From Naegleria gruberi (taxonomy: Eukaryota): a stretch of 64,000 nucleotides of DNA. Of this stretch, positions 16,433 to 36,055 are shown in pieces. A program made the position numbers and the translations under genes. A model generated the notes under the pieces. The model ran no database searches. It saw only the letters and a list, made by a program, of their open reading frames with translations, and was not told the origin of the DNA. The DNA is taken from the NCBI GenBank assembly GCA_000004985.1, contig GG738848.1. One strand, given 5' to 3'. Numbering within the stretch: position 1 is the stretch's first letter; each line of letters opens with the position of its first letter.

Positions 16433-18514
16433 TTATTTTCTATTTGATAGGATTTTCTTTACAGTTTTGTTATCTGAACTCAAAACGAGATCAGGAGCAA
16501 TGTTCAGAACAATATCACCAGTAATTCCTTGTTTTACAATATAATTCTCTTGCGCTAATTTTTCAGTACTATCTGCAATTTCAGTAAAGTTACTTCTGAA
16601 ATCGTCATCAAGTATCTCTTCATATTTTCTTCTAAATTCCTCAGAGGTTATTTCTCCATTAAACTTTTCCTTCTCAGATGCAACACAGCAAAGTATGACA
16701 AGTACTTCAATTGTTGTCTGACCTAATCCTTTTAGTATATCCAATTTTCTGCTAAATTGTGTATTTACAAGTTTTATCAGCTTACTTGTATCCAAGGTAT
16801 GAGCAATTGGAATCAAGTGAGTTTCCACAAATGATTTAATTTGTCTCATATCATGTTTGTTCTTTAAGAGACCCATCATTTTCTGAATCATATCTGCTGA
16901 AATCTTGTGCTTGTATTCATGAACAAGGATTGAGGTAATATCATCCTGTTCATACTGATTAAATGCCAAAAAGTTAATACCTGGATTCTTTGGTGGATCG
17001 TTGGTGATGGCCAATATTATTACTTTAGCCACTCGAATTTGTTCCAGATATTTGTTATGCTTGCTATATGAAAATTCATCAAGTAAGATGAGTGCTGGTG
17101 TGTGCTTCTTATTGAAATACTCCAATAACTTGGTGATTCTCTCTTGCTTCTTTGTTGAATCTGTTGATCGAGTGTAAACTTTTTCATAGAGCCTATATAT
17201 CAAATCAGATGCTTTTTCTGAACCAGCTAAATTCAATTGATACTTTTCCAAACAAGATGCATCAAATACTGAAGTTGTTACCATTGTTTTTCCTTGACCA
17301 TTAGTTCCGTAAATAAAAAGCACATTCTTTTGGGGATTAAAATCTTCATAACAGTTTTGGATAAAGTTAATTATTGTATCACATTCCTGCTTTCTTGAGA
17401 ATACTTCAACGTTTTGATTAAAGATTTTTGGTGATGATTTTTGTTTCTTTAGAGAAGATTCAAAAGGATGTTTCTCTTGTTCTTCTTCTCTTTCTGTGAC
17501 TGGAAGCTTAGCAATTGTCTTTCTTCTTGCTTGTCTTTGTTTTTTTGGAACTATTTCAATCTCGTCTTCAGATAGTAATGGTTCTTCAGTTTTCACAACC
17601 AAATCTTGTGAATCCTCAACTGGTTCAATTTTGACTTTTTGTCTGCGTCCTTGCCTAGATTTAACAGGAACAGGTTCTAATACTTCTTCTTGTGGTTGTT
17701 GCTGTATCTCATTAACAATAGGCACACTAGTTGAGGGTGAAACAATTTCTTGTGAATCTTCGGCTACTGTTGGAGGTACTGTTTCGTCTTTCGTTTCTGG
17801 AGTGATGCTAATAGTAGGTCGGGCTTGCCTCTTCTTTGTTCTAGTTTTAACAGATGCATGAATTACAGGGGATTGAATGTTGTTGGTAGTAGTATTCGAA
17901 TTGGATTGTTGTGATGAACTAGTTTCTTGAATTGGAGATTGTCTAACTAGATGAGTTTGAGGAGGGGAAAGAGGTGAAATTGATGGAGGCATCATTGGAA
18001 TTGAATGTTGACTATTGCTGTATGGACTTTGTGATAATGAGCTTTCGACTGGCATATTTCTCATTGGTGTTGAAAAGCTTCTAGAGGTTGTTGGACTGAA
18101 AAAGTATTCTCTTGTTTGATTAACAGATGTAATATATTGATCTCGATCCATAAGATCGATTTCTCTTTGTTCTGGTGGTAGTAATAAGAGTTTCTTCCAC
18201 AGCAGTCTATATTGAGTATTAGAGGTAATTTTAATGTCCTTGTTTGTTTTAATATCGTGAAAAACAATCACAAATTTACTCCTATCAACATTAGGATCAT
18301 CTATCACTTCCGACATTAAAAATTGTCTTGTTGATTCAATATCGGAATTTTCTTGTAATAGAGTTGTAGTTACACCATAATTTAAACACGATAGAGTGAC
18401 TTCCATTTCATCGGTAACACTATCATCAATCATGGAATGATCGGACAGAAGTGATGAGGAGAAAGAAGAGGTTTGTCTCCTTGTTGATGTATCTGTGATG
18501 TGTTGTTGACTCAT
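16433..18514 (-). CDS. Cdc6/Cdc18-like AAA+ ATPase (ORC1/Cdc6 family), 693 aa, single exon.
   Basis: Real ATG at 18512-18514 (MSQQHITDTSTRRQ). N-terminal region rich in S/T-P sites (SPYSNSQHSIPMMPPSISPLSPPQTHLVRQSPIQ, TPMR, SPST), like the Cdc6 CDK-phosphorylated N-terminus. Walker A FIYGTNGQGKTMV. Walker B LILLDEFSY. Sensor-1-like VIILAITNDPPKNPG (compare Cdc6/ORC1 LIGIANTMDLPER). The family assignment is inferred from motifs only. Confidence 0.45.
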   Translation of the reverse strand: MSQQHITDTSTRRQTSSFSSSLLSDHSMIDDSVTDEMEVTLSCLNYGVTTTLLQENSDIESTRQFLMSEVIDDPNVDRSKFVIVFHDIKTNKDIKITSNTQYRLLWKKLLLLPPEQREIDLMDRDQYITSVNQTREYFFSPTTSRSFSTPMRNMPVESSLSQSPYSNSQHSIPMMPPSISPLSPPQTHLVRQSPIQETSSSQQSNSNTTTNNIQSPVIHASVKTRTKKRQARPTISITPETKDETVPPTVAEDSQEIVSPSTSVPIVNEIQQQPQEEVLEPVPVKSRQGRRQKVKIEPVEDSQDLVVKTEEPLLSEDEIEIVPKKQRQARRKTIAKLPVTEREEEQEKHPFESSLKKQKSSPKIFNQNVEVFSRKQECDTIINFIQNCYEDFNPQKNVLFIYGTNGQGKTMVTTSVFDASCLEKYQLNLAGSEKASDLIYRLYEKVYTRSTDSTKKQERITKLLEYFNKKHTPALILLDEFSYSKHNKYLEQIRVAKVIILAITNDPPKNPGINFLAFNQYEQDDITSILVHEYKHKISADMIQKMMGLLKNKHDMRQIKSFVETHLIPIAHTLDTSKLIKLVNTQFSRKLDILKGLGQTTIEVLVILCCVASEKEKFNGEITSEEFRRKYEEILDDDFRSNFTEIADSTEKLAQENYIVKQGITGDIVLNIAPDLVLSSDNKTVKKILSNRK

Positions 18515-21700: not shown

Positions 21701-23540
21701 TTGTTGAATTGGGAGACTTGGTAGATTCTGCTAAAAATCTCATTCAAAAGAAGAGAATGGAAGCAAAGAGAAAGGAAAGAAAAATTCTCTCAATCAAATA
21801 TAGACTTGCTCAAGGTATTAAGGAAAGAGATATAGATGATCTTGAGACTGTTCTTGAAGAAGGACCATTTTATCCTGAATTGGCAACAGAGGTTCAAATT
21901 GCTAAAGAAATGTTAAGTGAATTATATCTTCATACACACGTTAAGGAAAATATCGTGGTGGTACCAGCTTTAACAGAAAAGGTTGAAAAGAAGGAAAATA
22001 CCTCAACTGGAAAATTCGAAGCCTTCCTAAAGAGTGCTCATATGTCCTTAGGAAGTGTTGAAAAGAGTGTTGAAGTCAAATTAGATTTTGAAGAATTGTT
22101 AGAAAAGAAGGATATTGTTGCTCTGGCTAAATTTATCAATAAGAATAAGCAGTTACTTACAAAAGAAGAAGCACAAAGAGCAACAGAAGTTATGGAAGAG
22201 TTATCATTGCCAAGTGCAACACCTGCAACTGCCACTGAATCATCAAAAGAGGAACTTCAAAAGAAGACAAAACCATTTTCATTCAACACAATGGTTTCAT
22301 CTCTCCATAGTAATATTATGAACTTGCTTAGTACTTGTGATGCAGACTCTATTGATCCAACATCAGGAAGATATGTTGTTCACTTATTCCCTCTTGGTGA
22401 TATCATTGTTAAGAATATTACATCAATTTTATATAATGGAACAAGAGTAAGTAGAAAATTTACTAACTTTGAAATCTTATCATTCATTAGAAAATTTATT
22501 GGATTAAAGAAAGAACACCATATGACATTTTTAAAAATCTTCAGGTTAGTGCTGTACAAGATGTAATTAGAGAATTTGAAGCCTTGGATCAAGTTCAACA
22601 TTTACCAAGTGATAACTTTGGAAAGACTGCTTCTCTTCTTCTGGTTCAATATTTACTTGATTGTGACTTCTTTGTTTATGCAATCAATCAATTGGCAATT
22701 GATGAAATGTACTTGCAAGAATGTTACGATAAGACTGCTATTTTATTTAACAAACAACTCAAAGATGAAATTTTGGGTGTATTCTCATTGCTCAATCAAT
22801 TTGATTTCCGTTTTGGATTTACCAAGGAAGTTGACGCAAAGGATGTTGCTTCTGCTAATATAGATCCACTTGCATCAACACAATCTGGCGTATCAATCAC
22901 GCAAACAGCTCAACCAAGTTTAAGTTTACAATTAACTTCAAGTACTTTGGACATGATTTCACTTTCACCTTTACTTCAATTGAAACAGTCAATCAAATCA
23001 ATTGTTCAGTTCTTCTATATGAAGAAGAATGATGAAAAGATGGATTTATATGATATTGGTGATGATTCAAAGAGTAGAGAAATTGATGTTCTTATAAGAA
23101 AGAAGCTTTGTTATTCATTGATGGATATTTTCTTGAAAGGATTTAAGAGTTTCTCAATATTCAAGACCTACCATGTTTGGAATGTGATTGAAGAAGCTGC
23201 AAGACTGAAAAAGTCATCTGCTGTTGATATTGGTGGTATTGGTATTCCATCGGCTGTTGAAACTGTTAACAAGATTGTTGAAGAGAGATTATCTTTAAAC
23301 ACCAAACAATTATCAAACATTGAAGATCTCAAGTTTAGAATCTTTGTTTGTTACTCATTGAATGATAATCAATTATCATACTTTATTCAATCTATTTTGA
23401 GAGAAAGTGATTTAATTAATAATTATTATGAAGCTGATTCATTGATAAGAAATTCCAACATTAGAGAAAAGGTGATTGGTTTCTTATCCAAGTTGGACAG
23501 ACTTCCATTTAACCTTTCTTTAACATCTGAATTGTTGTAA
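18781..23540 (+). CDS. PH-domain protein with an acidic region, a long coiled coil and a C-terminal globular region. 2 exons (18781-22446 and 22491-23540). About 1570 aa.
   Basis: Real ATG at 18781. N-terminal PH-like domain (GYFHKQGQGATGASYKRRWFKVYSDRIEYMVGPKDKKIKGDV...YKICFEDVVTRQRFKEVV). Acidic stretch DDDIDDDEDMPTFDDSSEEGFDD. Extended heptad-like K/E-rich sequence. GTAAGTAG donor at 22447 and CATTAG acceptor ending at 22490 (44-nt phase-0 intron), joining ...LYNGTR|KNYWIKERTPYDIFKNLQVSAVQDVIREFEALDQVQHLP. The track split this into ORFs 18781-22566 and 22584-23540. Confidence 0.5.
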
Positions 23541-23558
23541 ATAAAAAATACCTAGATG

Positions 23559-26500
23559 TTAAATGTGATACAATTCGTGAATCATGAAAAAGTATTCAAT
23601 TGGACAATATAATTTGAGTTTTCGTACCATCTCTTCATCTAATTTGATCGTTATCAATAAATCTCTACATTGATTGATAATTTCAAATAATTGTTCAATA
23701 ATGAAAGGTTTTAAATGTTCATGTTCCATCAAATCAATAAAAATTCTCATTCCTTTCAAAATTTCATCAGAGGCAACAGAATTTAAACTCAACGAGCTTA
23801 TAGTTCCATTACTATTGTTATTGGAATTTTGAATCAGAGAAGTTTCATAATTATAAGAATGATTAATGGATTCATTCTTCAATGCAGTAATATCATTTAG
23901 AACATTAAATCTACTTGTTATTGTTTCTAATCCTAAACGAACAATTTGATGTTCCATACATGGTTGTATTAAACCTTTCAATACTTGATTAGGAAAATAT
24001 GAAATATGAGTTGTAACATTAGAATATCCAAAATTTAAAGAATCAACAATTAATGAAGATGCAGCACTAATATTTCCAAATAAACTTGTTAAGGTTGATT
24101 TACGTCTATTGTTAGATTGTCCAGATGATCCAATAGTATTATAATTACCAGCATTGCCACTATTATTTGTCTGTTGTTGAGAATCTTGAGAATTAATATT
24201 ATTATAAATTGAATAATTTGGAAACATGGCACTTGTTGGTGAATTCATTCCTCCTCCAACTCCACCACCCATAAATGTACCACTATTATTATTGCTATTG
24301 CTTGTAGTATTAGAAGTAGGAGGATATAACAAGTGAGAAAGTTGAACTGTCCACTCACTAATATTCACACCACTATTATTCATTCCACCAACACTACTAA
24401 CATTACCAAAACTTCCACCTATACCACCTATATTATTATTACTTGAATTATTATTACTACCACCACCTATATTACCAATATTATTATTATTACCAGTATT
24501 AATATTATTATTACCAGTATTATTAATATTATTATTATTATTACTTGAACCACCATTAAAAGATTGTGAAGTTGTTGCAATTAATCTTTTTAAAATTGTT
24601 TGTTCAAATTCTTCTTTTTGTTGTTGATTAGTTCCAAATTTAATGAAATGAAAAATGTGATTTAATAATTTTTGAGTATTTGAATTTAAAATAAAAGAAG
24701 AAATTCCATCAATTAATTGTCTTTCAATAATAGTATTACTAAATAAAGATAAAGTATTAACATTTGATAAATTTTGATCTTTTCTAAAAATTTCATTTAA
24801 ATAAAAACAAGCATAAAATCTAATTATAAAAGGTTGATTTCCATTTTGAATTAAATCCATAAATCTTTTTATAACTCTTTCAGATGAAATTGGTAAAATT
24901 GATAAAACTTTAAAAGTTTTAATAATTAATTCATTATTAATTTCATAATTATTTCTATTATCATCATGAATAAATAATAATAATAACATTGATAAATTAT
25001 TTAATAATTGTTCATGTAAATTATTTTTAATATTTCCATTTTTAGTAGTAATATTACTATTTATAGTATTATCATTATATTTATAGTAATTAATTAAATA
25101 TTCTTTCATAATTTTTAAATAATGTTTATAAACAAGTAAAAGTAAAATTGTTTGTTTAAATTCAGATAAAGGTTGTTGTGAAATTCTAATTAAAGATTTA
25201 AATAAAATTGATAATAAATCACAAAATATTCTTTCTATAATAATTGGAACTCCTTTACATGTAATTGTATAATTTCCATATATAGGTAGTAATTTAGTTA
25301 CTATATATAGACATGATAAATGTTGTTCTAAATTAAAATTTTGATCAAAATAATATAATTCTATATTTGTAGGTATTGAAGCAATTCCTTTTTGTTCATT
25401 ATTATCTAATAAATTTGGTAATAAATATGAAATACATAATTTTAAAATATGTGAAATTTTACCATTTGAATTTAATTCTAAAAATTCAAATTGATTTAAT
25501 AAATTTTTATGTGAAATTTCCATTTCTGTATTATTATTACCATTTTTATCAGAATGAGAAGAAGAACAAGATGATGATGATGAATCTGAAATATCATCTG
25601 AAATATCATCTTCATCTTCTGAATTTACTATATTTGTTAATAAAATTGTAATTGATTTTGCTAAATTTAAAAATCTTGGAATTAAATAATTTTTTTTAAT
25701 TAAAATATATTCCCTTTTTAAATATTGATCATTTTCAATTTGTAAAATATATTGATTATTATTAATATTATTAAATAAATTATTTTGATTATTTAAAATT
25801 CTTTCCATAATTATTAATAAATGAATTTCCTTATTAGTAGAAATAGTTTCAATTAATTTTACAAAATTTAAATCTAAAGAATTTAAAATACAATTATCAA
25901 TAATTGATAAAATACTTGTTTTAGAATTACTATTTATAGTAAAATTAAAAGGTACATAAATGGAAATTAATTTACTCATGTAAGATTCATCTTGTTCAAA
26001 AATATCAATAAATTTAATTAAATGATCATAAAATAATTTGTTAAATTCAATTGAATTATTATAAATTTTACCTAAAAAATTAAAATTAATTAATTTTTTA
26101 AAATCATCCATAATTTTATCTAAAATTAAATTATCAATAATTAAATTTAAATTTAATAATTGTAATAAAAAATTAGAACAATTAATTTTTTCATTATTTT
26201 TATAATTTTTAAATAAAAAATTATATAATTGATAAACAATTTTATAACTATCATAACTTGTTTTAGATTCCAAATTTGGAGAAATAAATTCATCTGGATT
26301 TATATTTTGAATTATATTAATTAAAGTTAAAATTAAATTAAATAAAATTATAATTCCTTCATCATTTTTATAATTATTAATTAAAATTAATAAATCATTA
26401 ATTGACTTTTTTAGTAATTTCATATAAACATTTAAAATTTGTCTATTTTGTATAATTTCTATATTTGAATTTAAAATAATTAATAATAAAAATGGTGTTG

Positions 26501-29500
26501 TATTATAAATATTTAATAATAAATTACTCATTTGTTCAAATAAATAATTTAATTGGCAATGTTCAATTAATTTAGTAATTCCAAAACAAGTATGTACATA
26601 ATTAGAAATATTAAAATTTGTAATATTAAAAAAATCAGAATCATTAAATTCACTTAAATTAATTGGTTGTGATAATTTTAAAGAAGGTGTAATTGACCTT
26701 CTAAAAATAGATTTTGTTTTCTTTTTTTCTAAATTTATAATTAAATCTTCAGAAATTTTCTTATTTTTTAAAAAATCACTTAAAATTTCTATAAATGTAT
26801 TTGAATTTAAATCATTATTATTAAAATAACTTGTTTCATTTTTAATTAAAATTCTTAAAGCAATTTGTTGAATACTTGTATATTTAGAAGTAACTGCCCT
26901 TTTTAGATATTCTCTATATATAGTTTCAATTTCTTGTATATCTTTTAATTCTCCATTTATATTATTAAGAACATTACTTCCATTTATATTATTATTATTA
27001 TTATTATTAGTAGTATTATTAGTAGTAGTGGATGATGATGATGGTGATGAATTATTCCATAAATTACCACTATTAGATTTATTAGATGATAATCCATTTA
27101 AAATACTACTTGTATGATTATTCATACTATTATATTGTCTTGAATGTTGTTGTTGTTGTTCTTTCTTATTTCTTATATTCATTATATTCATTATACTATT
27201 ATTACTATTATTATTATTATTAGATCTACTACTATTATTTTTAAAAGAATTAGAAGTAGATGATAAATTATCAACACTATTTGAATAATTTGTTGTTGAT
27301 GATGAAATTTGTCTAAAAGAAGATAATTCATTCTTTCTTCTAATTTGATTTGTAAATTGTTCAAGTTTATCCAATGATAAATTTCTAATTAAAATTCTTT
27401 CAATAATTAATTCTTCAGNNNNNNNNNNNNNNNNNNNNNNNNNNNNNNNNNNNNNNNNNNNNNNNNNNAAATTGTGGTAAATATCCTAATAATGGAAATT
27501 GTTGTGATGCAATTTGATGATCATCTTCATAATATTGTTGATAAATAAAAACTAATTGTCTCCAAATTAGGCGATACAATTGTGGTCTTTCAGAAAAGAA
27601 ATCATCGGGTAATTTTCTAAACTTTTCAATTTTGGAAACTGATAAATATTCTGCTAAATCTAACATGAATTCCATAAATTCATTAGATGTTAATATTTTT
27701 TCCTTTTTTGTAAATTGTTCAATATTATTAAAGGAAATTCTCTTTCTTTCATCACTTTCTTTTAATGAAAGTCTATTTCCACTACTATTATTATTATTAT
27801 TAGTAGTAGTAGTATTAGTAGTAGCACTACCTCCTCCACTATTACTATATATACTTGAATTTGAGATAACACCACCACTTGAAGAATTTGTTTGATTGTT
27901 AAATAAATTCAAATTCTTTGAATCTCTTTTACCCATTGAAAATCTTAAACTTCTACTTCTGACACGTCCACCACCAGCACCAACACCACCACTAGATGTT
28001 GGTGTTCCACTACCACCTACATAATTAGAAGTAAAAACACCAGTACCAGCACCACCACTATTAGTATTAGTATTATTTGGACTAATACTGAGTGAATGAG
28101 CCATAGCAGTATTGGAATCAGATGAATTTGGTATTAAAGTGGATGGAGTATTAGATGCTGAATTAAATACATCACTATATTGTTGTTCAATATTAGCAAA
28201 TAAAGAAGGTGTTACAACAACAACAAGTGAATCAGTTGATGAATCATAATCCATATGAGTTGATTGTTGTTGCTGCTGTTGTTGTTCAGATCCTCTTCTA
28301 AAGAATGATTGTGAATGATGATGTGATGATTGATTCATTCCAATACTATTATTACTATTAACATTTCCAAATAAATAATTATTAGATGCCAAATTACTTG
28401 GTAATAAATTCAAATCAGATGAAATGTAAAATTTGTTTAAAAATTGTTCTAACATCATTCTAATTGGTATTTCATTCATTTCAATTAAACTATTACTAGT
28501 ATTAGTATTACTATTAGTAGTATTAGTATTATTACTAGTATTATTAGTAGTAGATTCAATATTTTCCTGTTGTTTGAGTGCAAAATAATGAGCAAATGAT
28601 GGAATTCTAGCAATTTCCAAATATCTAAAATCATATTCATTCAATTCATTAAATAAAGTATTATATAAATTTAATGATCCACTATAATTCTTTTTATCCT
28701 TATTCTTTTTAACATTTGAATTGGCATTAATTGAAGAAGAAGAAGTGGATGATGAAGAATTTGATTGTCCTGAAACAATATTTCCTAAAATATTTGATAA
28801 ATTAGTAGAAATGAATAAATTAGGAGGAGGTGGAGCACAATTTTGTAAAAGAGATGAAATATTATTAATACCCATTGATTGAATATCAATAGTTTTTAAA
28901 ATATAATTATAATGTTGTGATTGATTAAAATTTGGATCTAATGGATGTTGTTGTTGTTGCTGAGTAAAATTTTGATTTTCAATAATATAAATGGTATTAT
29001 TTGTTAAATTTGATAATTGTGACATGATATTAAAATATTCTTGACCTTTAAAATGTTGAAAATGATCAAAAATTAAAATACATTTACCATTTAAAATTAA
29101 TTGTTTTAAATATTGTTGAATTTCCTTATTAAATTGTAAATGTTGTTTTTGTAAATTGTTTGCAGTTGATGAATTATTTCTAGAATTAAATCTTGGACTT
29201 TGTGTAAAACTACCAAAATTAGAATTTGAATTTTCATTAAATAAAATATCATTTGCTAATTTTATAACATTTCCAAAATAATATTCAAAACATCCTTGAA
29301 TTATTTTATCTATAAAATCATTTATATTTGGCATATTTAATATATTTCTTAAAGATACCATAATTGGTATTTTAAATAAACTATTAGAATGATTTGATAA
29401 TAATTGATTTAATAAATTATTATTACTTGCCATATTAGAAGAATTACTAGTATTTAAAGTATAAATATGTTCCATATAATATCTATGTATAGATGAAATA

Positions 29501-32500
29501 AAAAATGATAAATCTGAATCTGTAAAATTACAATTTCTACAATTTAAAACATAACATATACAAAGTGATGAATATTTGTTATATTGAAAATTATCATTTC
29601 CACCTCCTCCATTACCATTTCCACTATTATTACTTCCAATACTACTATATCCACTACTACTATTTACACTATTAATACTATTATATCTATTATTAGAAGA
29701 TTGTGTACTAAATCTATTATTATTATTATTATTATTATTATTACTGATATTATTACCGATATTATTGATATTATTATTGTTAATACTATTTCTATAATCG
29801 AATGAATTTGAATTATTTGAATCAATTAAATGACTTGATTGAAATAAAAGATCAAAATTTGTATTTCTAACACCAATAACAGCACCTCTCTTTCTTGTTT
29901 TAAAATTATCACCATCATTAATATCCATTGAAAATACATTCATTGACATTCTATTAGATGCTATATTAGAATAGCATGATAATCCAATTGTAGAAGAAGA
30001 AGAGGATGATGATATTATTGAATTAGATTGATTATTCATATTAATATTATTGGATTGATTCATATTAGTATTATTAATATTGGATTGATTGATAGATGTT
30101 GAAATGGTATTATTTAAAAATGGTGAATTAAATAGTGGTGAATTATTATTAGCAACACCTGAAGAAGAATTAAATGAAGAATTTCTTGATATTGAAATTG
30201 GTAATGAAGATGCAATATTTGATACATTAATATTACTTATATTTGTTGTTGTTATTGAAGTGGTAGTGGTGGTATTATTATTATGAATATTATTATTATT
30301 AATATTATTAATATTACTATTTATAGTAGTATTATTATTATTATTATTATTTAATAAATTATTTAAACTTGATGAATGTGAAAGTTTTCTTGAAGAAGAA
30401 AATTGATTTGATGATAAATAATTATTTTGAGGTGTAATATAAGAAGTAATTTCCAATTTTACTTCTTTTAAAAATCGAATATAATCAAATTTTCCTTTTA
30501 TAGAAAATATTAAATTATCTTCATCTTGAATTCTTTTAAATAAATCATATAACATTACATTCATATTATTTTCATTAAATGTTTCAGATTTATCTTCTTC
30601 CTCGTTTTCATTAAAAATATTACTATATATATATAAATTACTAAAATATTCATCCTTAAATGGAAAGTTTTTACAATTTTGTACACATTTTACAAAAGTA
30701 TAAATGGAAACATTATTTTCACTATCACTTGATAATAAAGTTTTTAAAACTTTTTCAGATTTTGAATGAAAAGCAGATTTTGTAAAAAAATAATAACAAT
30801 CTTTAAATTCATTCCAAGAAACTTTGTAATTTTGAGTTCCAAACATTTGATCCCAAAAATGTCTTGCTAATCTATAAATAATATAATAGGTAGATGTAAA
30901 TTTATGTATAAATGATAATGAATTTCCTAAATTAGTATTTCCTAAATTGGATGATTGATTATTCATTAAAATATTACTTAAATTAGAAGACATGGGTGAT
31001 GATGAAATCATTTGAATATTTCTAGGTGAAAAATCTAATCCATTATTATTATTATTATTATTATTTATATTTATATTATTTATATTATTTATATTATTAT
31101 TTATATTATTATGATCTATTAAATTTAAATTATATGAAGAAATTGATTGTATTGAATCAATATCTTTTTGAATTGATTCTAATGCAGATAAAATATCTAC
31201 TTTTTCATCCATACTTGTATTTATATTTCCATTAATGGATGTATTATTACCATTAATAGAATGATGATTGTGATGATTATTATTAATATTATTATTAAAA
31301 TTTGATTCTTTTCTTTCTTTTAATAAAAAATTTAAACATTCAGTTGCATTTAATCTTTCACTTGAATCTAATCTTAAACATTTATATACCAATTTTAGTA
31401 ATATTGAATGTCCTTTATCAAGTAATAAAGTTAATAAATTAAAAGATTGATTCTTATCAATACATTCACTTATAAAATTATCAATTACTAATTTAGTTTC
31501 ATAATTATTTGAACAATTAAATAATAAATCTCTTAATGAATCAAATCGACTTCTCCTTTTTTGTACAAGTAATTGTAATGCTACTATTCCTAATGCCCAC
31601 ATATCAACTGATTCATTATAATATTTACCATCAAATATTTCAGGTGCCATATAATTTTTAGATCCTTTTTTTAAAATTATTAAAATATTAAAATATTATT
31701 TATGGAAATTATTTAATATATATGGAAATTAATATATAAAATTAATATGAATAAATGAATATGAATGAATAAAACTTACCTGTTATACTCATAAGAGGTG
31801 AATCACCAACTTTAAATTCACGTGTTAATCCAAAATCAGATAAATAAATTTGAGCATTTTCAATAATTTCCTTATATGATAAATTTGTATCATTTGTTTT
31901 TTTAGATTGTAATAAAATATTATCAGGTTTCTAAATTATTTAAATATATTTATAAATATTAATAAATATTAATAAATTAAAAATATTAAAAATATAAAAA
32001 AACATACAATATCCAAATGTACTAATTTCCTTTTATGAAAAAATACCAAACTTCTAGTTATATCAATCATCCAATTTAATTTTAATTCACCACTAATAAA
32101 TTCATTTCCATAACTATTTGAAAAATTTAAAATAACATCTTCTAAACTTCCCAAATCACAACATGCCATTACAATAGATAATGCATATTCAATTTCACCT
32201 TTTAAATTATTTTTATATTCCTTATAGAATATATCATAGTGTGGTACTATACGAACTACTACTTGTTTATTGGAAGATGATGAAGATGATGAAGCATATG
32301 AAGATGAGGATGATGAAGCATATGATGCATATGATGAATTAAATTGATGATTAAATGTTGATTCAACATTACAAACTTGTAATATTAATTTAATTTGTTG
32401 TTCCAAATCACTTAAATTACTAATAGTTATACGTTTAATTGCTAAATTTATATTATTATTTTCATCCGTGGATCCATCATTATGTTGTTGTTGTTCTTGT

Positions 32501-33004
32501 TGTTGTTGATTTATACTTGCAAGGAACTATTCAACAACAGTTAATAATAAATTTAATATATTAAAAACAATCAGTTGATGATTTAAAACCTACCACTTGA
32601 CCTTCAATTCCACCTCCTAACTTTTTAATAATTTTATAATCATATTTTGGATTTGTAAATTTAGTTAAATCTAAGGGATGATGTTTTAAACAGACATCAA
32701 TCATTGTTTTATATAAATGTGATCTCGATGATGATATTGGTATTAATGTATTATTACTATTTTCTAATGTTACTAAATTATTCATCGTTGAAGGAGATGA
32801 AGGTGAATGTTGTTGAACATTATTTCTATCAATGGTTAGAAAATTTAATTGTGGTGATGTTGATAGTTTATTATTATTATTGACATTTAATGATGATGAA
32901 GAAGAAGAGGATGATGGTGTTGATGATGATGATGAATTGATTCTTGTTCTTGATAATTGTTGTTGTTGTTGTTGTTTCGAATTATTATCATCATCCGCTA
33001 ACAT
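23559..33004 (-). CDS. Giant protein with an N-terminal Ser/Thr protein kinase domain (non-RD type) and a long N/S/Q-rich tail. At least 4 exons: 32594-33004, about 32009-32526, 31780-31931 and 23559-31664. The last exon spans the assembly gap at 27419-27468.
   Basis: Real ATG at 33002-33004 (MLADDDNNSKQQQQQQ). Exon 1 ends after the G-loop KKLGGGIEGQV (GTAGGT donor). Exon 2 carries the VAIK-type lysine (NLAIKRI), helix C (LEQQIKLILQV), the hinge (CCDLGSLED) and the start of the catalytic loop (VHLDI; GTATGT donor). Exon 3 reads KPDNILLQSKK...YLSDFGLTREFKVGDSPLMSITG (DFG; GTAAGT donor). Exon 4 reads SKNYMAPEIFDGKYYNESVDMWALGIV (APE, subdomain IX). The reading frame is open on both sides of the N run, so ORFs 27415-31650 and 23559-27374 are one exon. 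The ORF 23559-27374 has no ATG for about 60 codons and its frame stays open back to the gap. Confidence 0.55.
27419..27468. other. Assembly gap (50 N) inside the giant kinase gene.
   Basis: Run of n characters. The reading frame is open on both flanks. Confidence 0.95.
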
Positions 33005-33074
33005 TTTTTATCAGTGATGGTTGTGTTTGATTGATGACATTAGAAAATTATTATTTATTTAAAATTAGCATCAC

Positions 33075-35597
33075 TTATTCGTTTCTGGGTGATGAAACAT
33101 CTTCTTCCTCTTCATCATCATCATCATCATCAGAGGACATGTATTCATCATTAAAATTATGTTGTGTTTGTTGTTGATTAAATTCATTAACCATTCTTTC
33201 ATCATCACTTTCTTCAACAACATAATCAAAAGAAGTGGATAATTCATTATTATTTAAATCATGATTAACCATTTCATCATCAAGATATTGTTCATTTAAA
33301 TGTTTTTCTCTCTTTGATAATTCTTCTTCCTCTTCTTCATCATTCTGTTGTGGACTATCTAATATAATAGCTTCATTATTAGGTGCATCAATTTTGGCAA
33401 TACTTGTTCTTGGTATTATTTCTGCAAGTATTTGTTTAGGTGATGCTGGTTGAAGTCTCATAAATTGAGATTTAGATCTAGTTCTAGGTGTTTGAGCTGT
33501 TAATGATGATGGTGATGATGGACTATTAACATTTAGCAATCCATTATTAGTACTATTATTGTTGTAATTATTATTGATGATACCTCCACCACCAGTTCCA
33601 CTCACTGTATTATTGTTATTACTACTATTATTATTAAATACATATCCACTTGTTGATGGAATTGATAAACTTATGTTTGGTCCAATTGAAACTCCAGAAT
33701 TACGAGAATTATTTGATAATGTTAAATCATCATTAACACTTAATGAATCATTGGATAATTTTGAAATGTGAGATCTCTGATCAAATGATGATGATAATGG
33801 AACTGTTAAGGTATTTGGTGTTTGTTGAGAGGATTGAGTTAAATTATTCATTCTTTGAGAATTTAAAATTTCATGAAGTTCCTTTCTTAAATTTTCCTTC
33901 TCATTATGTACATTATTTCTATCATTTTGAACAATACTTAAATATCTCTTAGTTTCTTCTAATTGTCTTTGTAATTTTCTAATAGATTCAGTTAAAACTC
34001 TATTTTCTTTTTGAGTTTTTCTTTCAGATTCTTCAACATCTGATTTTGATTTTTGTAAAAATTGTTGAGATTTTCTTAAATTATTAATATCATCTTCTAA
34101 TCTTTTAGTTTGTGATTTTTGATTTTCAATTTCATTATTTAATTTTTCAACTTGTTGTACATGTTTCAAAGATAATTCCCTTTCTGTAAATTTAACTTTT
34201 TGTTGTAAATCTTGTAATTGTTGTTCAAATTTAGAAGATCTTTCTTCAAACATTATTGATCTTGATTTTTCTTCTTCTAATTTAACTTCTAATGCATGTG
34301 ATTGATCTGTTATTAATTGTAATTCAGCTATTGATCTACTTCTTTCTTCAATTAGAGTTTTCATTTCATTAACAATAACTTCAGTTTGTGAATTTTCAAT
34401 TGATAAAAGTGATCTTGAAAAGTTTTGAGCATCCCTAACTTGTTGTGATAAATTTGAATATCTATCTTTAACATTTACCATTGATGAACATATTTCTCTC
34501 AATTCATTTTGAACATCTCCAAGATATTTATAATGAATTGTCTTTAAAGATGAGTATTCTTGTGATAATTGTTTAAATTGTTTCATTAAATGATCATATT
34601 CTTCATTATTCTTTCTTAATTTTTCATTATGTGAAATGGTTTGTGATTCAAATTGTGTTTCCATTTCATAAACTTTCTTTTCTGTTAAATCTTTTTCAAA
34701 TAAAATTCGATCTCTTTCTTTATCACTTATTGAAAGTTCACGTTTTAATTTTTCAATATCTTCTGTTAATCTTTGAATATCATTCATAAAATCTTCTCTT
34801 TCTTGATCATATTGTTTTTGTAAATCTATATATTGATTCTTTTCATTTACAATTTGATTTGTATACTCATCCAATTGAAAATGTAAATTTGTAATTTCTT
34901 CTTCACATTTTTCACATTTATCTCTTAACATTTCTAATTCATGTTCTAAATCTTTTGTATGTGAATTTCTATCTGATAATTGTTGTGTTGAAACATCTAA
35001 TTTATCCAATGTTTCTTTAACTTCATTTTGAAGATCTTGATTCTTTCTTTTAGAATTTTCCAATTGATCTTTAACTGCTGAATTTTCATTCTCTAATCTA
35101 TCAACTATAAATTGTGCATTATATAATTCACCTTGTAATTTATCATTCTTATTTTGAAGAGAGAATTTCTCTTGTGATGAATTACGAAGTTCTTGATCTT
35201 TTAAACTTAATTCCTTATTTAAATCTTGAACTTTTCTTTCCATTGTTTGTAATTCTTTTAATAGGGCATTATTATATTCAATTTGACTTGCAAGTTCTTC
35301 TGAGAGATCTACTCTAGATCCACTCATTGGAGCCATTGATGAGAAGGAATAATCCTTTGATGGTGAAGATGTATTATTATTAGTATTCATCATCATGTAT
35401 TGTTGTTTTTCTGTATCGGGTGTAAGATAGGAATTTAATTTACTTGAATAGGATGTATTGTTGTTAGAAGTAGTATTTCTTGATGGAGGCGTATTTTGAT
35501 AATTTGATGGTTCATAGTAAGAGCTTGTTTGAGGTTGATGAAGGCTTGTGTTAGAGAATGCCTTAGAAGATGAGTTAGGCTTTAATTCCCTTTTCAT
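33075..35597 (-). CDS. Long coiled-coil protein, 840 aa, single exon.
   Basis: Real ATG at 35595-35597 (MKRELKPNSSSKAF). Central about 500 aa of continuous heptad-like, E/K/Q/L-rich sequence (KELSLKDQELRNSSQEKFSLQNKNDKLQGELYNAQF...). S/N-rich N-terminal region and acidic C-terminal region (DDDDDEEEEDVSSPRNE). Lies in tandem 70 bp downstream of the kinase gene start. Confidence 0.5.
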   Translation of the reverse strand: MKRELKPNSSSKAFSNTSLHQPQTSSYYEPSNYQNTPPSRNTTSNNNTSYSSKLNSYLTPDTEKQQYMMMNTNNNTSSPSKDYSFSSMAPMSGSRVDLSEELASQIEYNNALLKELQTMERKVQDLNKELSLKDQELRNSSQEKFSLQNKNDKLQGELYNAQFIVDRLENENSAVKDQLENSKRKNQDLQNEVKETLDKLDVSTQQLSDRNSHTKDLEHELEMLRDKCEKCEEEITNLHFQLDEYTNQIVNEKNQYIDLQKQYDQEREDFMNDIQRLTEDIEKLKRELSISDKERDRILFEKDLTEKKVYEMETQFESQTISHNEKLRKNNEEYDHLMKQFKQLSQEYSSLKTIHYKYLGDVQNELREICSSMVNVKDRYSNLSQQVRDAQNFSRSLLSIENSQTEVIVNEMKTLIEERSRSIAELQLITDQSHALEVKLEEEKSRSIMFEERSSKFEQQLQDLQQKVKFTERELSLKHVQQVEKLNNEIENQKSQTKRLEDDINNLRKSQQFLQKSKSDVEESERKTQKENRVLTESIRKLQRQLEETKRYLSIVQNDRNNVHNEKENLRKELHEILNSQRMNNLTQSSQQTPNTLTVPLSSSFDQRSHISKLSNDSLSVNDDLTLSNNSRNSGVSIGPNISLSIPSTSGYVFNNNSSNNNNTVSGTGGGGIINNNYNNNSTNNGLLNVNSPSSPSSLTAQTPRTRSKSQFMRLQPASPKQILAEIIPRTSIAKIDAPNNEAIILDSPQQNDEEEEEELSKREKHLNEQYLDDEMVNHDLNNNELSTSFDYVVEESDDERMVNEFNQQQTQHNFNDEYMSSDDDDDDEEEEDVSSPRNE

Positions 35598-35752
35598 TTT
35601 TTTAAAATCCTTAAACGTTTACTTTTTTACTGTTAAAATATTGGCGGTAAAGTTATTAATAGTATTGATGATGTAATTTAAAACAAAAGAATTTATAAAA
35701 AAATTATTTGAATCTACCACAGTTGGATGGAACACACTTTTCTGAAAATTTC

Positions 35753-36013
35753 ATGTCTTCGGAATCAACTTCATATGGAACTAGATTTGTAAATAAATTT
35801 AAAAATCAAAATGTGTGTCTATTGTTAACTTTATCCATTATTTTACTCTGTATCATTTTCATGTGTTTACAAATAGTTTATCAACAAGATCAAAAACAAG
35901 CAACATTACAATCATTTGAAACTAATCCATTGAGAGATTATGAAGCCATTAGACATGATTTAATTAAAACAGGTGATAATAATGCACCACCAACATTATT
36001 ACCCAATATTTAA
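35753..36013 (+). CDS. Small single-pass membrane protein (about 86 aa), hypothetical.
   Basis: First ATG inside track ORF 35708-36013 gives MSSESTSYGTRFVNKFKNQNVCLLLTLSIILLCIIFMCLQIVYQQ..., with one hydrophobic helix. Sits in the short interval between two minus-strand genes. No homology recognised. Confidence 0.25.
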   Translation: MSSESTSYGTRFVNKFKNQNVCLLLTLSIILLCIIFMCLQIVYQQDQKQATLQSFETNPLRDYEAIRHDLIKTGDNNAPPTLLPNI

Positions 36014-36055
36014 AAACAAGTAATAATTGAAAATAAATTTTTTTAATAAATAAAA

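What the first reader, a model, noticed from the sequence alone, without database searches (positions are those of the whole stretch)
23559..33004. Giant single gene: non-RD kinase domain split over 4 exons, fused to a low-complexity tail of about 2,900 aa that runs through an assembly gap
The kinase catalytic loop reads VHLDIKPDNILL, so the HRD arginine is replaced by Leu (a non-RD kinase). A roughly 30-residue Q/N-rich insert sits between the glycine loop (LGGGIEGQV) and the VAIK-type lysine (NLAIKRI). The DFG, APE and DMWALGI motifs are intact, so it is probably active. Downstream, the frame is open on both sides of the 50-N gap. The ORF below the gap has no ATG for about 60 codons, so track ORFs 27415-31650 and 23559-27374 are most simply one exon of a protein of more than 3,000 aa. 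Structured islands such as ...FGTQNYKVSWNEFKDCYYFFTKSAFHSKSEKVLKTLL... are embedded in the N/S/Q-rich sequence. Most gene callers would split this or miss the N-terminal kinase exons.
Basis: partly seen in the sequence, partly recalled or inferred. Interest (0 to 1): 0.6.

Follow-up and report, generated by a model that had tools for sequence, protein, structure and literature searches.

The report
Giant mis-annotated Naegleria kinase gene
This is one real gene of the amoeba Naegleria gruberi that encodes a protein kinase of about 3,130 amino acids with a long, partly conserved tail; the gene is already in public databases, but as a model that is about one third too short, and it is otherwise an ordinary, uncharacterised, lineage-restricted kinase.

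Summary
On the minus strand, four GT-AG exons (33004-32594, 32526-32008, 31930-31780, 31664 onwards) encode a protein kinase domain with HLD in place of HRD. The last exon stays open on both sides of the 50-N gap and ends at the TAA at 23561-23559. That gives 3,044 visible codons.

The window is Naegleria gruberi, not a dictyostelid as I first assumed. The locus is the public gene NAEGRDRAFT_62707 (XP_002682118.1, 2,038 aa).

Two orthologues show it is one gene. An environmental Naegleria-like contig and Willaertia magna KAL9654569.1 (1,887 aa) both run straight through the gap position with 90 conserved residues. Both also keep the HLD motif.

The public model starts 100 residues too late. 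It splices out six blocks of the big exon that are in frame and free of stops, five of them clearly conserved, and it has a frame-shifted C-terminus.

The tail is not simply low complexity. About 40% is N/S-rich filler specific to N. gruberi. About half aligns to the compact Willaertia protein, including a predicted all-helical, HEAT-like solenoid region.

An exhaustive search of 1.84 billion representative proteins found only these two relatives. The kinase is probably active. The tail's function is unknown.

Verdict: real, partly already annotated, of modest interest.

The parts
32594..33004 (-). Exon 1 (aa 1-137). It holds the start ATG at 33004, an S/N-rich N-terminus, the conserved IPISSSRSHLYKTMIDVC stretch and the glycine loop GGGIEGQV (32594-32617).
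   Evidence: There is a stop two codons upstream of the ATG. The region upstream of the public model's start (Met101) is conserved in both orthologues. Orthologue fragment P0003 ends at the same ...GGGIEGQV followed by GT.
32527..32593 (-). Intron 1: 67 nt, GTAGGT...AG, phase 0.
   Evidence: The environmental orthologue has an intron at the same codon position (179 nt). The same junction is used in public model P0023.
32008..32526 (-). Exon 2 (aa 138-310). It holds the species-specific Q/N insert, the AIKRI lysine (32428-32442), the alpha-C LEQQIK motif, an S-rich insert and the first half of the catalytic loop, HLDI (32008-32019).
31931..32007 (-). Intron 2: 77 nt, GTATGT...AG, phase 0. It lies inside the catalytic loop, between HLDI and KPDN.
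   Evidence: The environmental orthologue has an intron at the same position (190 nt).
31780..31930 (-). Exon 3 (aa 311-361, first base of codon 361). It holds KPDNILL, SDFG and the activation loop.
31665..31779 (-). Intron 3: 115 nt, GTAAGT...AG, phase 1.
   Evidence: The environmental orthologue has no intron here, and its contiguous DNA encodes exactly the predicted spliced peptide MSITGSKNYMAPE.
27469..31664 (-). Exon 4, part upstream of the gap (aa 361-1759). It holds the kinase C-lobe (to about 31312) and the first half of the tail.
   Evidence: no stop codon; collinear with both orthologues.
31312..32641 (-). Protein kinase domain (aa about 122-478), interrupted by the three introns.
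   Evidence: Pfam Pkinase 4.6e-30 on aa 230-472. In the compact orthologue the full domain is matched, profile positions 1-259. Best PDB matches are STK33, ULK1/2 and NEK1 at E 1e-13 to 1e-11.
30406..30903 (-). Conserved tail module 1 (aa 615-780): HFWDQMFG...VSWNEFKDCYYFFTKSAFHSKSEKVLK...MLYDLFKRIQDEDNLIFSIKGKFDYIRFLKEVKLE. It is predicted helical, at low confidence.
   Evidence: Most of it is spliced out of the public model.
29875..29895 (-). Conserved basic motif RKRGAVI, with Ala at the position a phospho-acceptor would occupy. It reads RKRAAVI and KKRRAAI in the orthologues.
   Evidence: Any functional reading is inference.
28396..29592 (-). Conserved tail module 2 (aa 1052-1450): YVLNCRNCNFTD..., KIPIMVSLRNIL, NGKCILIFDHFQHFKGQ, TNNTIYIIENQN, NNISSLLQN, DFRYLEIARIPSF and EQFLNKFYISSD, split by N/S-rich inserts. 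It has a beta-alpha-beta pattern. Its identity is unresolved.
   Evidence: Fold and profile tests against AAA+/STAND NTPases were not significant.
27937..27960 (-). Conserved basophilic motif RSRSLRFS in a disordered Ser/Thr/Gly-rich linker. It reads RSKSLRLS in Willaertia.
27730..27747 (-). Conserved RKRISF motif (KRRISF in Willaertia) at the start of the C-terminal helical region.
27419..27468 (.). Assembly gap (50 N) inside exon 4. It hides about 90 codons.
   Evidence: Both orthologues have 90 conserved residues at this point.
23559..27416 (-). Exon 4, part downstream of the gap: 1,285 codons plus the TAA at 23561-23559. It holds an all-helical, HEAT-like solenoid region interrupted by N/S/G-rich inserts, and a conserved C-terminus ...IEYFFMIHELYHI.
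   Evidence: The orthologue model is all-alpha with about 45 helices, pLDDT 53. Foldseek matches karyopherin-beta, CAND1, SA2 and SF3B1 at E 4e-6 to 1e-3 with TM 0.13-0.27.

Best explanation
Window 23559-33004 (minus strand) is a single Naegleria gruberi gene, the public locus NAEGRDRAFT_62707. It has three short introns, all within the kinase-coding part, and one last exon of about 8.4 kb that contains the assembly gap.

The product is about 3,130 aa: 3,044 visible plus about 90 hidden in the gap. It has two parts.

1. **An N-terminal eukaryotic Ser/Thr protein kinase domain.** It keeps every catalytic residue (glycine loop, AIK Lys, alpha-C Glu, catalytic Asp and Asn in HLDIKPDN, DFG, APE). 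The Arg that precedes the catalytic Asp is Leu. This change is conserved in all three known orthologues, so the enzyme is most likely active and does not rely on the usual contact between a phosphorylated activation loop and that Arg.
2. **A tail of about 2,650 aa made of conserved modules joined by fast-evolving N/S/Q/T-rich linkers.** The modules are a helical module, a beta-alpha-beta module of unresolved identity, a disordered linker carrying conserved basic motifs (RKRGAVI, RSRSLRFS, RKRISF), and a long all-helical HEAT-like solenoid.

The most likely mode of action is inferred, not shown. The solenoid and the other modules would act as a docking or scaffold platform that positions the kinase. 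The conserved basic motifs would be regulatory (auto)phosphorylation or pseudosubstrate-type sites.

The low-complexity runs are N. gruberi-specific expansions. The Willaertia orthologue fits the same modules into 1,887 aa. The public 2,038-aa model is an over-spliced, N-terminally truncated version of this gene.
For: **Gene model**
- Canonical GT-AG introns restore kinase subdomain order.
- Intron positions 1 and 2 are conserved in the environmental orthologue, and intron 3 is absent there.
- The last exon of that orthologue is uninterrupted.
- The window protein and the orthologue are collinear at 41% identity over about 2,940 columns.
- Both orthologues have 90 conserved residues across the gap position.
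- The Willaertia protein has the kinase and tail in one chain with the same C-terminus.
- Open frames this long have chance probabilities of about 1e-63 and 1e-58.

**Identity of the locus**
- P0023 = XP_002682118.1 [Naegleria gruberi]. It matches the window in 100%-identical blocks covering 2,016 of its 2,038 residues.

**The public model is deficient**
- The blocks it omits are in frame and free of stops, and all but the first (aa 470-571, 32/87 identical to the environmental orthologue, barely alignable to Willaertia) are clearly conserved. For aa 642-715, 56/72 residues are identical to the environmental orthologue and 49/74 to Willaertia. For aa 1972-2373 the figures are 225/396 and 112/287. 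For the true C-terminal 72 aa, 30/63 are identical to Willaertia.
- Its C-terminal 18 aa come from another reading frame of the same DNA.

**Kinase**
- Pfam Pkinase scores 4.6e-30 and 1.1e-33.
- The catalytic motifs and HLD are conserved in all three species.

**Tail**
- It has no Pfam or PDB sequence match.
- The AlphaFold model is all-alpha and gives HEAT-solenoid fold matches.
- 40% of the tail is low-entropy sequence and 1,313 of 2,564 residues align to Willaertia.

**Restricted distribution**
- An exhaustive phmmer search of 1.84e9 representatives found only two proteins.
- A metagenome scan with the kinase C-lobe found only generic kinases at 48% identity or less.
Against: - No transcript data were available, so the splice junctions and the absence of further introns in the 8.4-kb exon rest on comparative and statistical evidence only.
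- The sequence under the gap is unknown in N. gruberi itself.
- The structure models are of low confidence (mean pLDDT 53 and 37, from alignments of 2-3 sequences). They were made on the Willaertia orthologue, not on the window protein.
- Solenoid matches have low TM-scores (0.13-0.27). They show only the fold class.
- Kinase activity and any scaffold, pseudosubstrate or phosphosite role are inferred.
- The start codon lies only 70 bp downstream of the preceding gene's stop, which leaves little room for a promoter.
Confidence: 0.88

Rival explanations
1. The public JGI/NCBI model (XP_002682118.1, 2,038 aa) is the true product. On this view the stretches it removes, including the one bridging the gap, are real introns, and the gene starts at Met101.
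For: It is the deposited annotation. It shares the three kinase introns with the long model. The first omitted block (aa 470-571) is poorly conserved and of low complexity, so alternative splicing there cannot be excluded.
Against: - All omitted blocks are in frame and free of stops. At 0.098 stops per codon, even the shortest omitted block (74 codons) would stay open by chance only about 5e-4 of the time, and the 402-codon block about 1e-18.
- Five of the six, plus the N- and C-terminal pieces, are conserved as protein in two other species.
- The environmental orthologue's last exon is one continuous ORF.
- The model's C-terminus is a frame-shifted reading that loses the conserved ...EYFF.IH..YHI end.
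- Sequence upstream of Met101 (IPISSSRSHLYK) is conserved.
Confidence: 0.05
2. Two separate genes lie on either side of the gap: a kinase gene of about 1,760 aa, and a downstream gene encoding the helical protein.
For: With the literal 50 N the upstream frame hits a TGA at 27415-27417. The gap content is unknown.
Against: The 50 N is a placeholder. Both orthologues read straight through this point with 90 conserved residues. The downstream ORF has no Met for 75 codons. Willaertia encodes both parts in one protein.
Confidence: 0.03
3. The kinase domain is a pseudokinase. On this view the HRD-to-HLD change and the N-lobe inserts have abolished catalysis, and the protein works only as a scaffold.
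For: - The HRD Arg is lost.
- The N. gruberi N-lobe carries two inserts and is not covered by the Pfam match (profile positions 60-259 only).
- Large kinase-plus-solenoid proteins such as ULK4 and the SCYL proteins are pseudokinases (from my own knowledge).
Against: - The glycine loop, AIK Lys, alpha-C Glu, catalytic Asp and Asn, DFG and APE are all intact and conserved across three species.
- The inserts are species-specific. The Willaertia domain matches the full Pkinase profile.
- Active kinases with HLD exist, for example Mos and Myt1 (from my own knowledge, not tested here).
Confidence: 0.15
4. Tail module 2 (aa 1052-1450) is a degenerate STAND/AAA+-type NTPase domain. That would make the protein a kinase, pseudo-NTPase and solenoid signalling hub with an NLR-like architecture.
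For: - The order of conserved hydrophobic strands resembles P-loop strand, beta2, Walker B and sensor 1, followed by a helical region...CYVLNC..., KIPIMVSLR, CILIFDHF, TIYIIENQN, then ...EIARIPSF....
- The only moderately confident part of the model is beta-alpha-alpha-beta-alpha-beta.
- The top Foldseek hits are ORC/Cdc6/p97 AAA+ modules.
Against: - The model has pLDDT 37.
- hhalign against an NLRP3 NACHT sequence and against a neighbouring AAA_22/NB-ARC-like ORF gave probability 0.2%.
- There is no Pfam hit even at E<=10.
- No Walker A glycine or lysine is present, and only one acidic residue sits at the would-be Walker B.
Confidence: 0.15

Closest known systems
XP_002682118.1 / EFC49374.1 / UniRef100_D2V1V3 (NAEGRDRAFT_62707, 'predicted protein', 'non-specific serine/threonine protein kinase'), Naegleria gruberi
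   Same: It is the same locus. 2,016 of its 2,038 residues match the window translation in 100%-identical blocks, and it uses the same three kinase introns.
   Different: - The public model starts at Met101.
- It omits aa 470-571, 642-715, 731-810, 1724-1802 (which bridges the gap), 1972-2373 and 2478-2613.
- It replaces the last 72 aa with 18 aa from another reading frame.
- As a result it lacks about 1,100 aa, counting the roughly 90 residues hidden by the gap; apart from aa 470-571 and 731-810 these are conserved in orthologues.
KAL9654569.1, hypothetical protein ABK040_006633, Willaertia magna (1,887 aa)
   Same: It is the orthologue. It has the same kinase domain with HLDLKPDN, the same order of tail modules, the same basic motifs and the same C-terminal ...EYFF.(I/L)H..YHI. 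Identity over the C-terminal region is 42%.
   Different: It is compact. It lacks nearly all the N/S/Q-rich inserts, so it is about 1,250 aa shorter.
Eukaryotic protein kinases with an N-terminal kinase domain and a long C-terminal HEAT/ARM solenoid (ULK4, STK36/Fused, Vps15, SCYL1-3) - comparison from my own knowledge
   Same: The overall layout is shared: a kinase domain at the N-terminus followed by a helical-repeat region of about 1,000 aa. ULK1/2 are among the best PDB matches of the kinase domain (E 1.7e-12 to 1.6e-11).
   Different: There is no specific sequence relationship. STK33, NEK1, PKC and PKR score about as well as ULK. The tail matches no Pfam family. Between the kinase and the solenoid it has extra conserved modules that those families lack.
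Non-RD kinases with HLD in the catalytic loop (c-Mos, Myt1/PKMYT1) - from my own knowledge. Within tool results, Dictyostelium CDK-DD1 DDB0229424 (HLDIKPSN), PakE (HLDVKAAN) and Shk2 (HLDLKPAN) in the Goldberg 2006 supplement (PMC1420674); the first two are marked active there.
   Same: The HRD Arg is replaced by Leu while the other catalytic residues are intact.
   Different: The families are unrelated. No specific similarity of the domain to them was seen.

Membership tests
Eukaryotic protein kinase superfamily (Pfam PF00069) | A significant match to the Pkinase profile above the gathering score. | tested here: met
   Window protein: 105.3 bits against a cut-off of 31.7, E 4.6e-30. Willaertia orthologue: 117.2 bits over profile positions 1-259.
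Eukaryotic protein kinase superfamily (catalytically competent) | GxGxxGxV loop, VAIK Lys, alpha-C Glu, catalytic Asp and Asn (HxDxKxxN), DFG and APE. | tested here: met
   GGGIEGQV, AIKRI, LEQQIK, HLDIKPDN, SDFG and MAPE are present and conserved in three species. Enzymatic activity itself was not testable.
RD kinases | An Arg immediately before the catalytic Asp (HRD). | tested here: not met
   HLD in N. gruberi, in the environmental orthologue and in Willaertia.
ULK / Fused (STK36) / ULK4 family | The kinase domain is specifically closest to ULK-family domains, and the C-terminal region is homologous to theirs. | tested here: inconclusive
   ULK1/2 score E 1.7e-12 to 1.6e-11, but STK33 (8.8e-14), NEK1 (7.3e-12), PKC-theta and PKR score the same. 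The tail has no Pfam or PDB sequence match. No phylogeny was made.
HEAT/ARM alpha-solenoid proteins (fold class) | Tandem antiparallel helix pairs that form a superhelix. | tested here: inconclusive
   The orthologue model is all-alpha with about 45 helices, at pLDDT 53. Foldseek hits karyopherin-beta, CAND1, SA2 and SF3B1 at E 4e-6 to 1e-3, but with TM of only 0.13-0.27. No Pfam HEAT or ARM repeat was detected.
STAND / AAA+ P-loop NTPases (NACHT, NB-ARC, ORC/Cdc6) | A Walker A motif, GxxxxGK[ST]. | tested here: not met
   The corresponding conserved stretch reads YVLNCRNCNFTD / HVIITKNSNFMD. It has no Gly-rich loop and no Lys.
STAND / AAA+ P-loop NTPases (NACHT, NB-ARC, ORC/Cdc6) | Significant profile or fold similarity to an NTPase core. 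| tested here: inconclusive

The most novel reading that the evidence does not exclude
The protein founds an undescribed family of giant signalling proteins restricted to vahlkampfiid heteroloboseans. In this reading, a constitutively active-type (non-RD) kinase is fused to a degenerate, nucleotide-independent STAND/AAA+-like module and a HEAT-like solenoid of roughly 900-1,400 aa. That would be an NLR-like 'kinase, switch, repeat' architecture in which the switch has lost its P-loop. The conserved RKRxA[VA]I pseudosubstrate-like motif and the RSRSLRFS and RKRISF sites would provide autoinhibition.
Probability: 0.12. Interest if true: 0.5.

Novelty: new member of a known kind. Interest (0 to 1): 0.3.

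Why it matters
**Practical value.** The reference annotation of a model free-living amoeba, a close relative of the pathogen Naegleria fowleri, carries a model of this gene that lacks about one third of the protein, including conserved domains and the true N- and C-termini. The comparative evidence here gives a corrected model and predicts what closing the gap should reveal: about 270 nt of open frame encoding a basic, conserved 90-aa segment.

**Biological value.** It defines an orphan kinase family, found so far only in Naegleria and Willaertia. The family has a conserved non-RD catalytic loop and a large modular tail. It also shows how N. gruberi inflates a protein of about 1,900 aa to about 3,100 aa with N/S-rich inserts placed between conserved modules.

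None of this overturns current understanding. It is an annotation correction plus a lead for heterolobosean signalling biology.

Tried and rejected
1. **Dictyostelid origin.** I first assumed a dictyostelid because of the AT-richness, poly-N/Q runs and short AT-rich introns, and searched the Dictyostelium kinome paper and its supplements for HLDIKPDN and other peptides. Nothing was found. The assumption was rejected once the exhaustive protein search identified Naegleria gruberi.
2. **Word-indexed protein searches.** The search with the window's kinase domain returned only distant kinases and one orthologue exon-1 fragment, and it missed the identical public protein. The search with the Willaertia tail returned only the two known relatives.
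3. **Exact look-up of two neighbouring window ORFs.** Neither is on record.
4. **Rfam on the whole window.** No family was found.
5. **Metagenome scan with the kinase C-lobe.** It found 33 loci, all generic kinases at 48% identity or less, and no further orthologue.
6. **Structure prediction including the environmental orthologue.** Models therefore rest on 2-3 sequences and are of low confidence.
8. **AlphaFold-database fold search.** The afdb50 library was not available.
9. **Upstream coiled-coil ORF (33075-35597) as an extra 5' exon.** I rejected this. It ends in its own stop in both species, the orthologous ORFs diverge before the stop, and there is a stop two codons before the kinase ATG.
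10. **Literature.** No paper in the library mentions NAEGRDRAFT_62707.


Full report
**What is in the sequence**

On the minus strand an ATG at 33004, with a stop two codons upstream, opens a reading frame that ends at a GTAGGT donor right after the glycine loop LGGGIEGQV. Three short AT-rich GT-AG introns follow: 32593-32527, 32007-31931 and 31779-31665. Removing them joins four coding pieces into a canonical protein kinase:

- ...GGGIEGQV|FLASIN...NLAIKRI...
- ...KLVHLDI|KPDNILL...SDFGLTREF...MSIT|GSKNYMAPE...DMWALGI...

The fourth exon starts at 31664 and runs without a stop to the 50-N gap at 27468-27419, which makes 1,759 codons from the ATG. On the other side of the gap a frame is open from the first base for 1,285 codons, down to the TAA at 23561-23559.

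At the local composition (41.5% A, 37.9% T on this strand) a stop is expected every ten codons or so. Open stretches of this length have chance probabilities near 1e-63 and 1e-58. Pfam recognises the kinase domain at 4.6e-30 and nothing else.

**Which organism and which gene**

The AT-richness and the poly-N/Q/S runs made me assume a dictyostelid at first. That was wrong. An exhaustive phmmer scan of 1.84 billion representative proteins with the post-gap 1,136 residues found just two proteins:

- P0023, 99% identical, 2,038 aa
- P0024, 42% identical, 1,887 aa

Cluster look-up names them. P0023 is XP_002682118.1 / EFC49374.1, NAEGRDRAFT_62707, 'predicted protein [Naegleria gruberi]', listed in UniRef as 'non-specific serine/threonine protein kinase'. 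P0024 is KAL9654569.1, a hypothetical protein of Willaertia magna. P0023 matches the window translation in 100%-identical blocks covering 2,016 of its 2,038 residues. The window is therefore the N. gruberi reference scaffold, and the gene is already in the public record.

**Is it one gene?**

Three independent lines say yes.

First, a fragment found with the kinase query, P0003, is exon 1 of an orthologue. It ends at the same ...LGGGIEGQV followed by a GT donor. Its contigs, L001 and L002, are environmental assemblies with 35% GC. They carry the PP2A-A gene (91% identical) and a coiled-coil gene (55% identical) in the same order upstream, so this is the syntenic orthologue from a Naegleria-like species.
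- In that orthologue, introns 1 and 2 sit at exactly the same codons.
- Intron 3 is absent, and the contiguous DNA encodes ...SPLMSITGSKNYMAPE.... This is exactly the peptide predicted by splicing intron 3 in the window.
- The last exon is a single ORF of more than 3,000 codons with no gap.

Second, the window protein and this orthologue are collinear from the kinase to the C-terminal region, at 41% identity over about 2,940 columns. At the position of the window's gap, both the environmental orthologue and the Willaertia protein have the same 90-residue basic segment between ...LGYLPQF / ...LNYIPEF and EE(V/K)II(I/L)ERIL.... The gap therefore hides about 90 codons, and the full protein is about 3,130 aa.

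Third, the Willaertia annotation holds the kinase and the tail in one chain. It ends ...LEYFFILHDIYHI, matching the window's ...IEYFFMIHELYHI.

**The public model is too short**

XP_002682118.1 uses the same three kinase introns, but it differs from the long ORF in several ways:
- It starts at Met101.
- It removes aa 470-571, 642-715, 731-810, 1724-1802 (an 'intron' drawn across the gap), 1972-2373 and 2478-2613.
- It ends in 18 residues read from another frame of the last 60 nt.

The removed blocks are in frame and free of stops. All but the first are conserved as protein:
- aa 642-715: 56/72 identical to the environmental orthologue and 49/74 to Willaertia
- aa 1972-2373: 225/396 and 112/287
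- the true C-terminal 72 aa: 30/63 identical to Willaertia
- the stretch before Met101, which contains the conserved IPISS(S/P)(R/K)SHLYK

The caller kept the kinase exons and over-spliced the tail.

**The kinase**

GGGIEGQV, AIKRI, the alpha-C LE(Q/E)QIK, HLD(I/L)KPDN, SDFG, MAPE and D(M/I)WALG are present in all three species. The Leu in place of the HRD Arg is therefore an ancestral, conserved property of the family, not a recent lesion.

The Q/N-rich stretch after the glycine loop is real but species-specific. 28 residues separate the loop Val from the AIK Ala in N. gruberi, against 20 in the environmental orthologue and 14 in Willaertia. The same holds for an S-rich insert after helix C. 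In Willaertia the whole domain matches the Pkinase profile, positions 1-259.

Against solved structures the domain is equally distant from STK33, ULK1/2, NEK1, PKC and PKR, at E 1e-13 to 1e-11. It belongs to no recognisable family.

With all catalytic residues intact I predict an active Ser/Thr kinase that does not depend on the Arg-phosphate contact of RD kinases. That is inference from established kinase biochemistry, not something tested here. Precedents for kinases with HLD that are marked as active appear in the Dictyostelium kinome table (DDB0229424 and PakE; PMC1420674). From my own knowledge, Mos and Myt1 are further examples.

**The tail**

'Low-complexity tail' is only partly right. 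Of the 2,564 visible tail residues, 18% are Asn and 13% Ser, and 40% lie in low-entropy windows. However, 1,313 residues align to the compact Willaertia orthologue, 554 of them identical.

The three-way alignment shows conserved modules separated by unconserved inserts:
- a helical module (aa 615-780; HFWDQMFG..., VSWNEFKDCYYFFTKSAFHS..., MLYDLFKRIQDEDNLIFS...)
- a basic motif, RKRGAVI / RKRAAVI / KKRRAAI
- a module with alternating hydrophobic strands and helices (aa 1052-1450)
- a disordered linker with RSRSLRFS / RSKSLRLS
- RKRISF / KRRISF, followed by a long helical region that spans the gap and runs to the C-terminus

Neither Pfam (E up to 10) nor profile searches of PDB sequences match any part of the tail.

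- The C-terminal 888 residues gave an all-alpha model of about 45 helices at mean pLDDT 53. Its Foldseek matches are HEAT solenoids (karyopherin-beta family, CAND1, SA2, SF3B1) at E 4e-6 to 1e-3 but TM of only 0.13-0.27. This supports the fold class and nothing more specific.
- The N-terminal half of the tail gave pLDDT 37. Only a beta-alpha-alpha-beta-alpha-beta stretch reached 50-73.

**The NTPase idea**

The motif order in aa 1052-1450 reminded me of a STAND/AAA+ NTPase with a dead P-loop. I tested this, with these results:
- Foldseek's best hits are indeed ORC/Cdc6/p97, but at E 0.097 or higher.
- There is no Walker A.

I therefore do not file the module as an NTPase. It remains a low-probability lead.

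**How it probably works**

Shown:
- It is a single gene.
- It has a kinase domain with a full catalytic set and a conserved non-RD loop.
- Its tail is conserved and modular.
- The low-complexity inflation is specific to N. gruberi.

Inferred:
- The kinase is active.
- The solenoid and other modules act as a docking platform that localises the kinase or brings it substrates. This is how other kinase-plus-solenoid proteins work, which I state from my own knowledge.
- The three conserved basic motifs are regulatory. One has Ala at the would-be acceptor position and two have Ser. They could be pseudosubstrate and (auto)phosphorylation sites for a basophilic kinase.

No data here address the biological process the protein takes part in.

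**Distribution and novelty**

Only Naegleria and Willaertia sequences were found among 1.84e9 representatives. A metagenome scan with the most conserved kinase peptides gave nothing beyond generic kinases, and no paper in the library mentions the locus.

The finding is real. It comes down to a corrected gene model for an already catalogued, uncharacterised kinase, plus the recognition of a small heterolobosean-specific family. I rate it a new member of a known kind, of modest interest.

Noticed in passing
window 1604-8404 (+): An uninterrupted 2,266-aa ORF with bacterial-type alpha-2-macroglobulin domains (bMG10 5.7e-30, A2M_BRD, MG2, A2M) lies in this Naegleria gruberi scaffold. It is possibly a gene of bacterial origin.
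   Followed up: no
window 33005-33074, and L001 5973-6064: The kinase start codon lies only 70 bp downstream of the stop of the same-strand coiled-coil gene (33075-35597). The same tight tandem arrangement (92 bp) is kept in the environmental orthologue contig. The promoter must be very compact or must overlap the upstream gene.
   Followed up: partly
window 23541-23558: The kinase stop (TAA, 23561-23559) is 18 bp from the end of the convergent RUN-domain ORF 22584-23540. The two genes must share or overlap their 3' regions.
   Followed up: no
L001 2320-3527 compared with window 35598-36055: The order PP2A-A, coiled-coil gene, kinase is conserved. However, the environmental contig carries two extra minus-strand genes (a glutathione peroxidase and a 119-aa ORF) between PP2A-A and the coiled-coil gene, and these have no match in the window.
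   Followed up: partly
window 62485-62705: A second assembly gap of 221 N lies inside or next to ORF 60459-62723.
   Followed up: no
window 16433-18514 (-): A 693-aa ORF has weak AAA_22 and NB-ARC matches (E 5.9e-6 and 5.5e-4). It is a possible STAND-type NTPase gene about 5 kb from the kinase gene. Its Walker-B stretch was the segment hhalign paired, non-significantly, with CILIFDHF of the kinase tail.
   Followed up: partly
tool behaviour: The word-indexed protein search with the window's own kinase domain did not return XP_002682118.1. That protein is 100% identical over aa 101-469 and is in the collection, since one search returned it. Negative results from that tool should not be read as absence.
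   Followed up: yes
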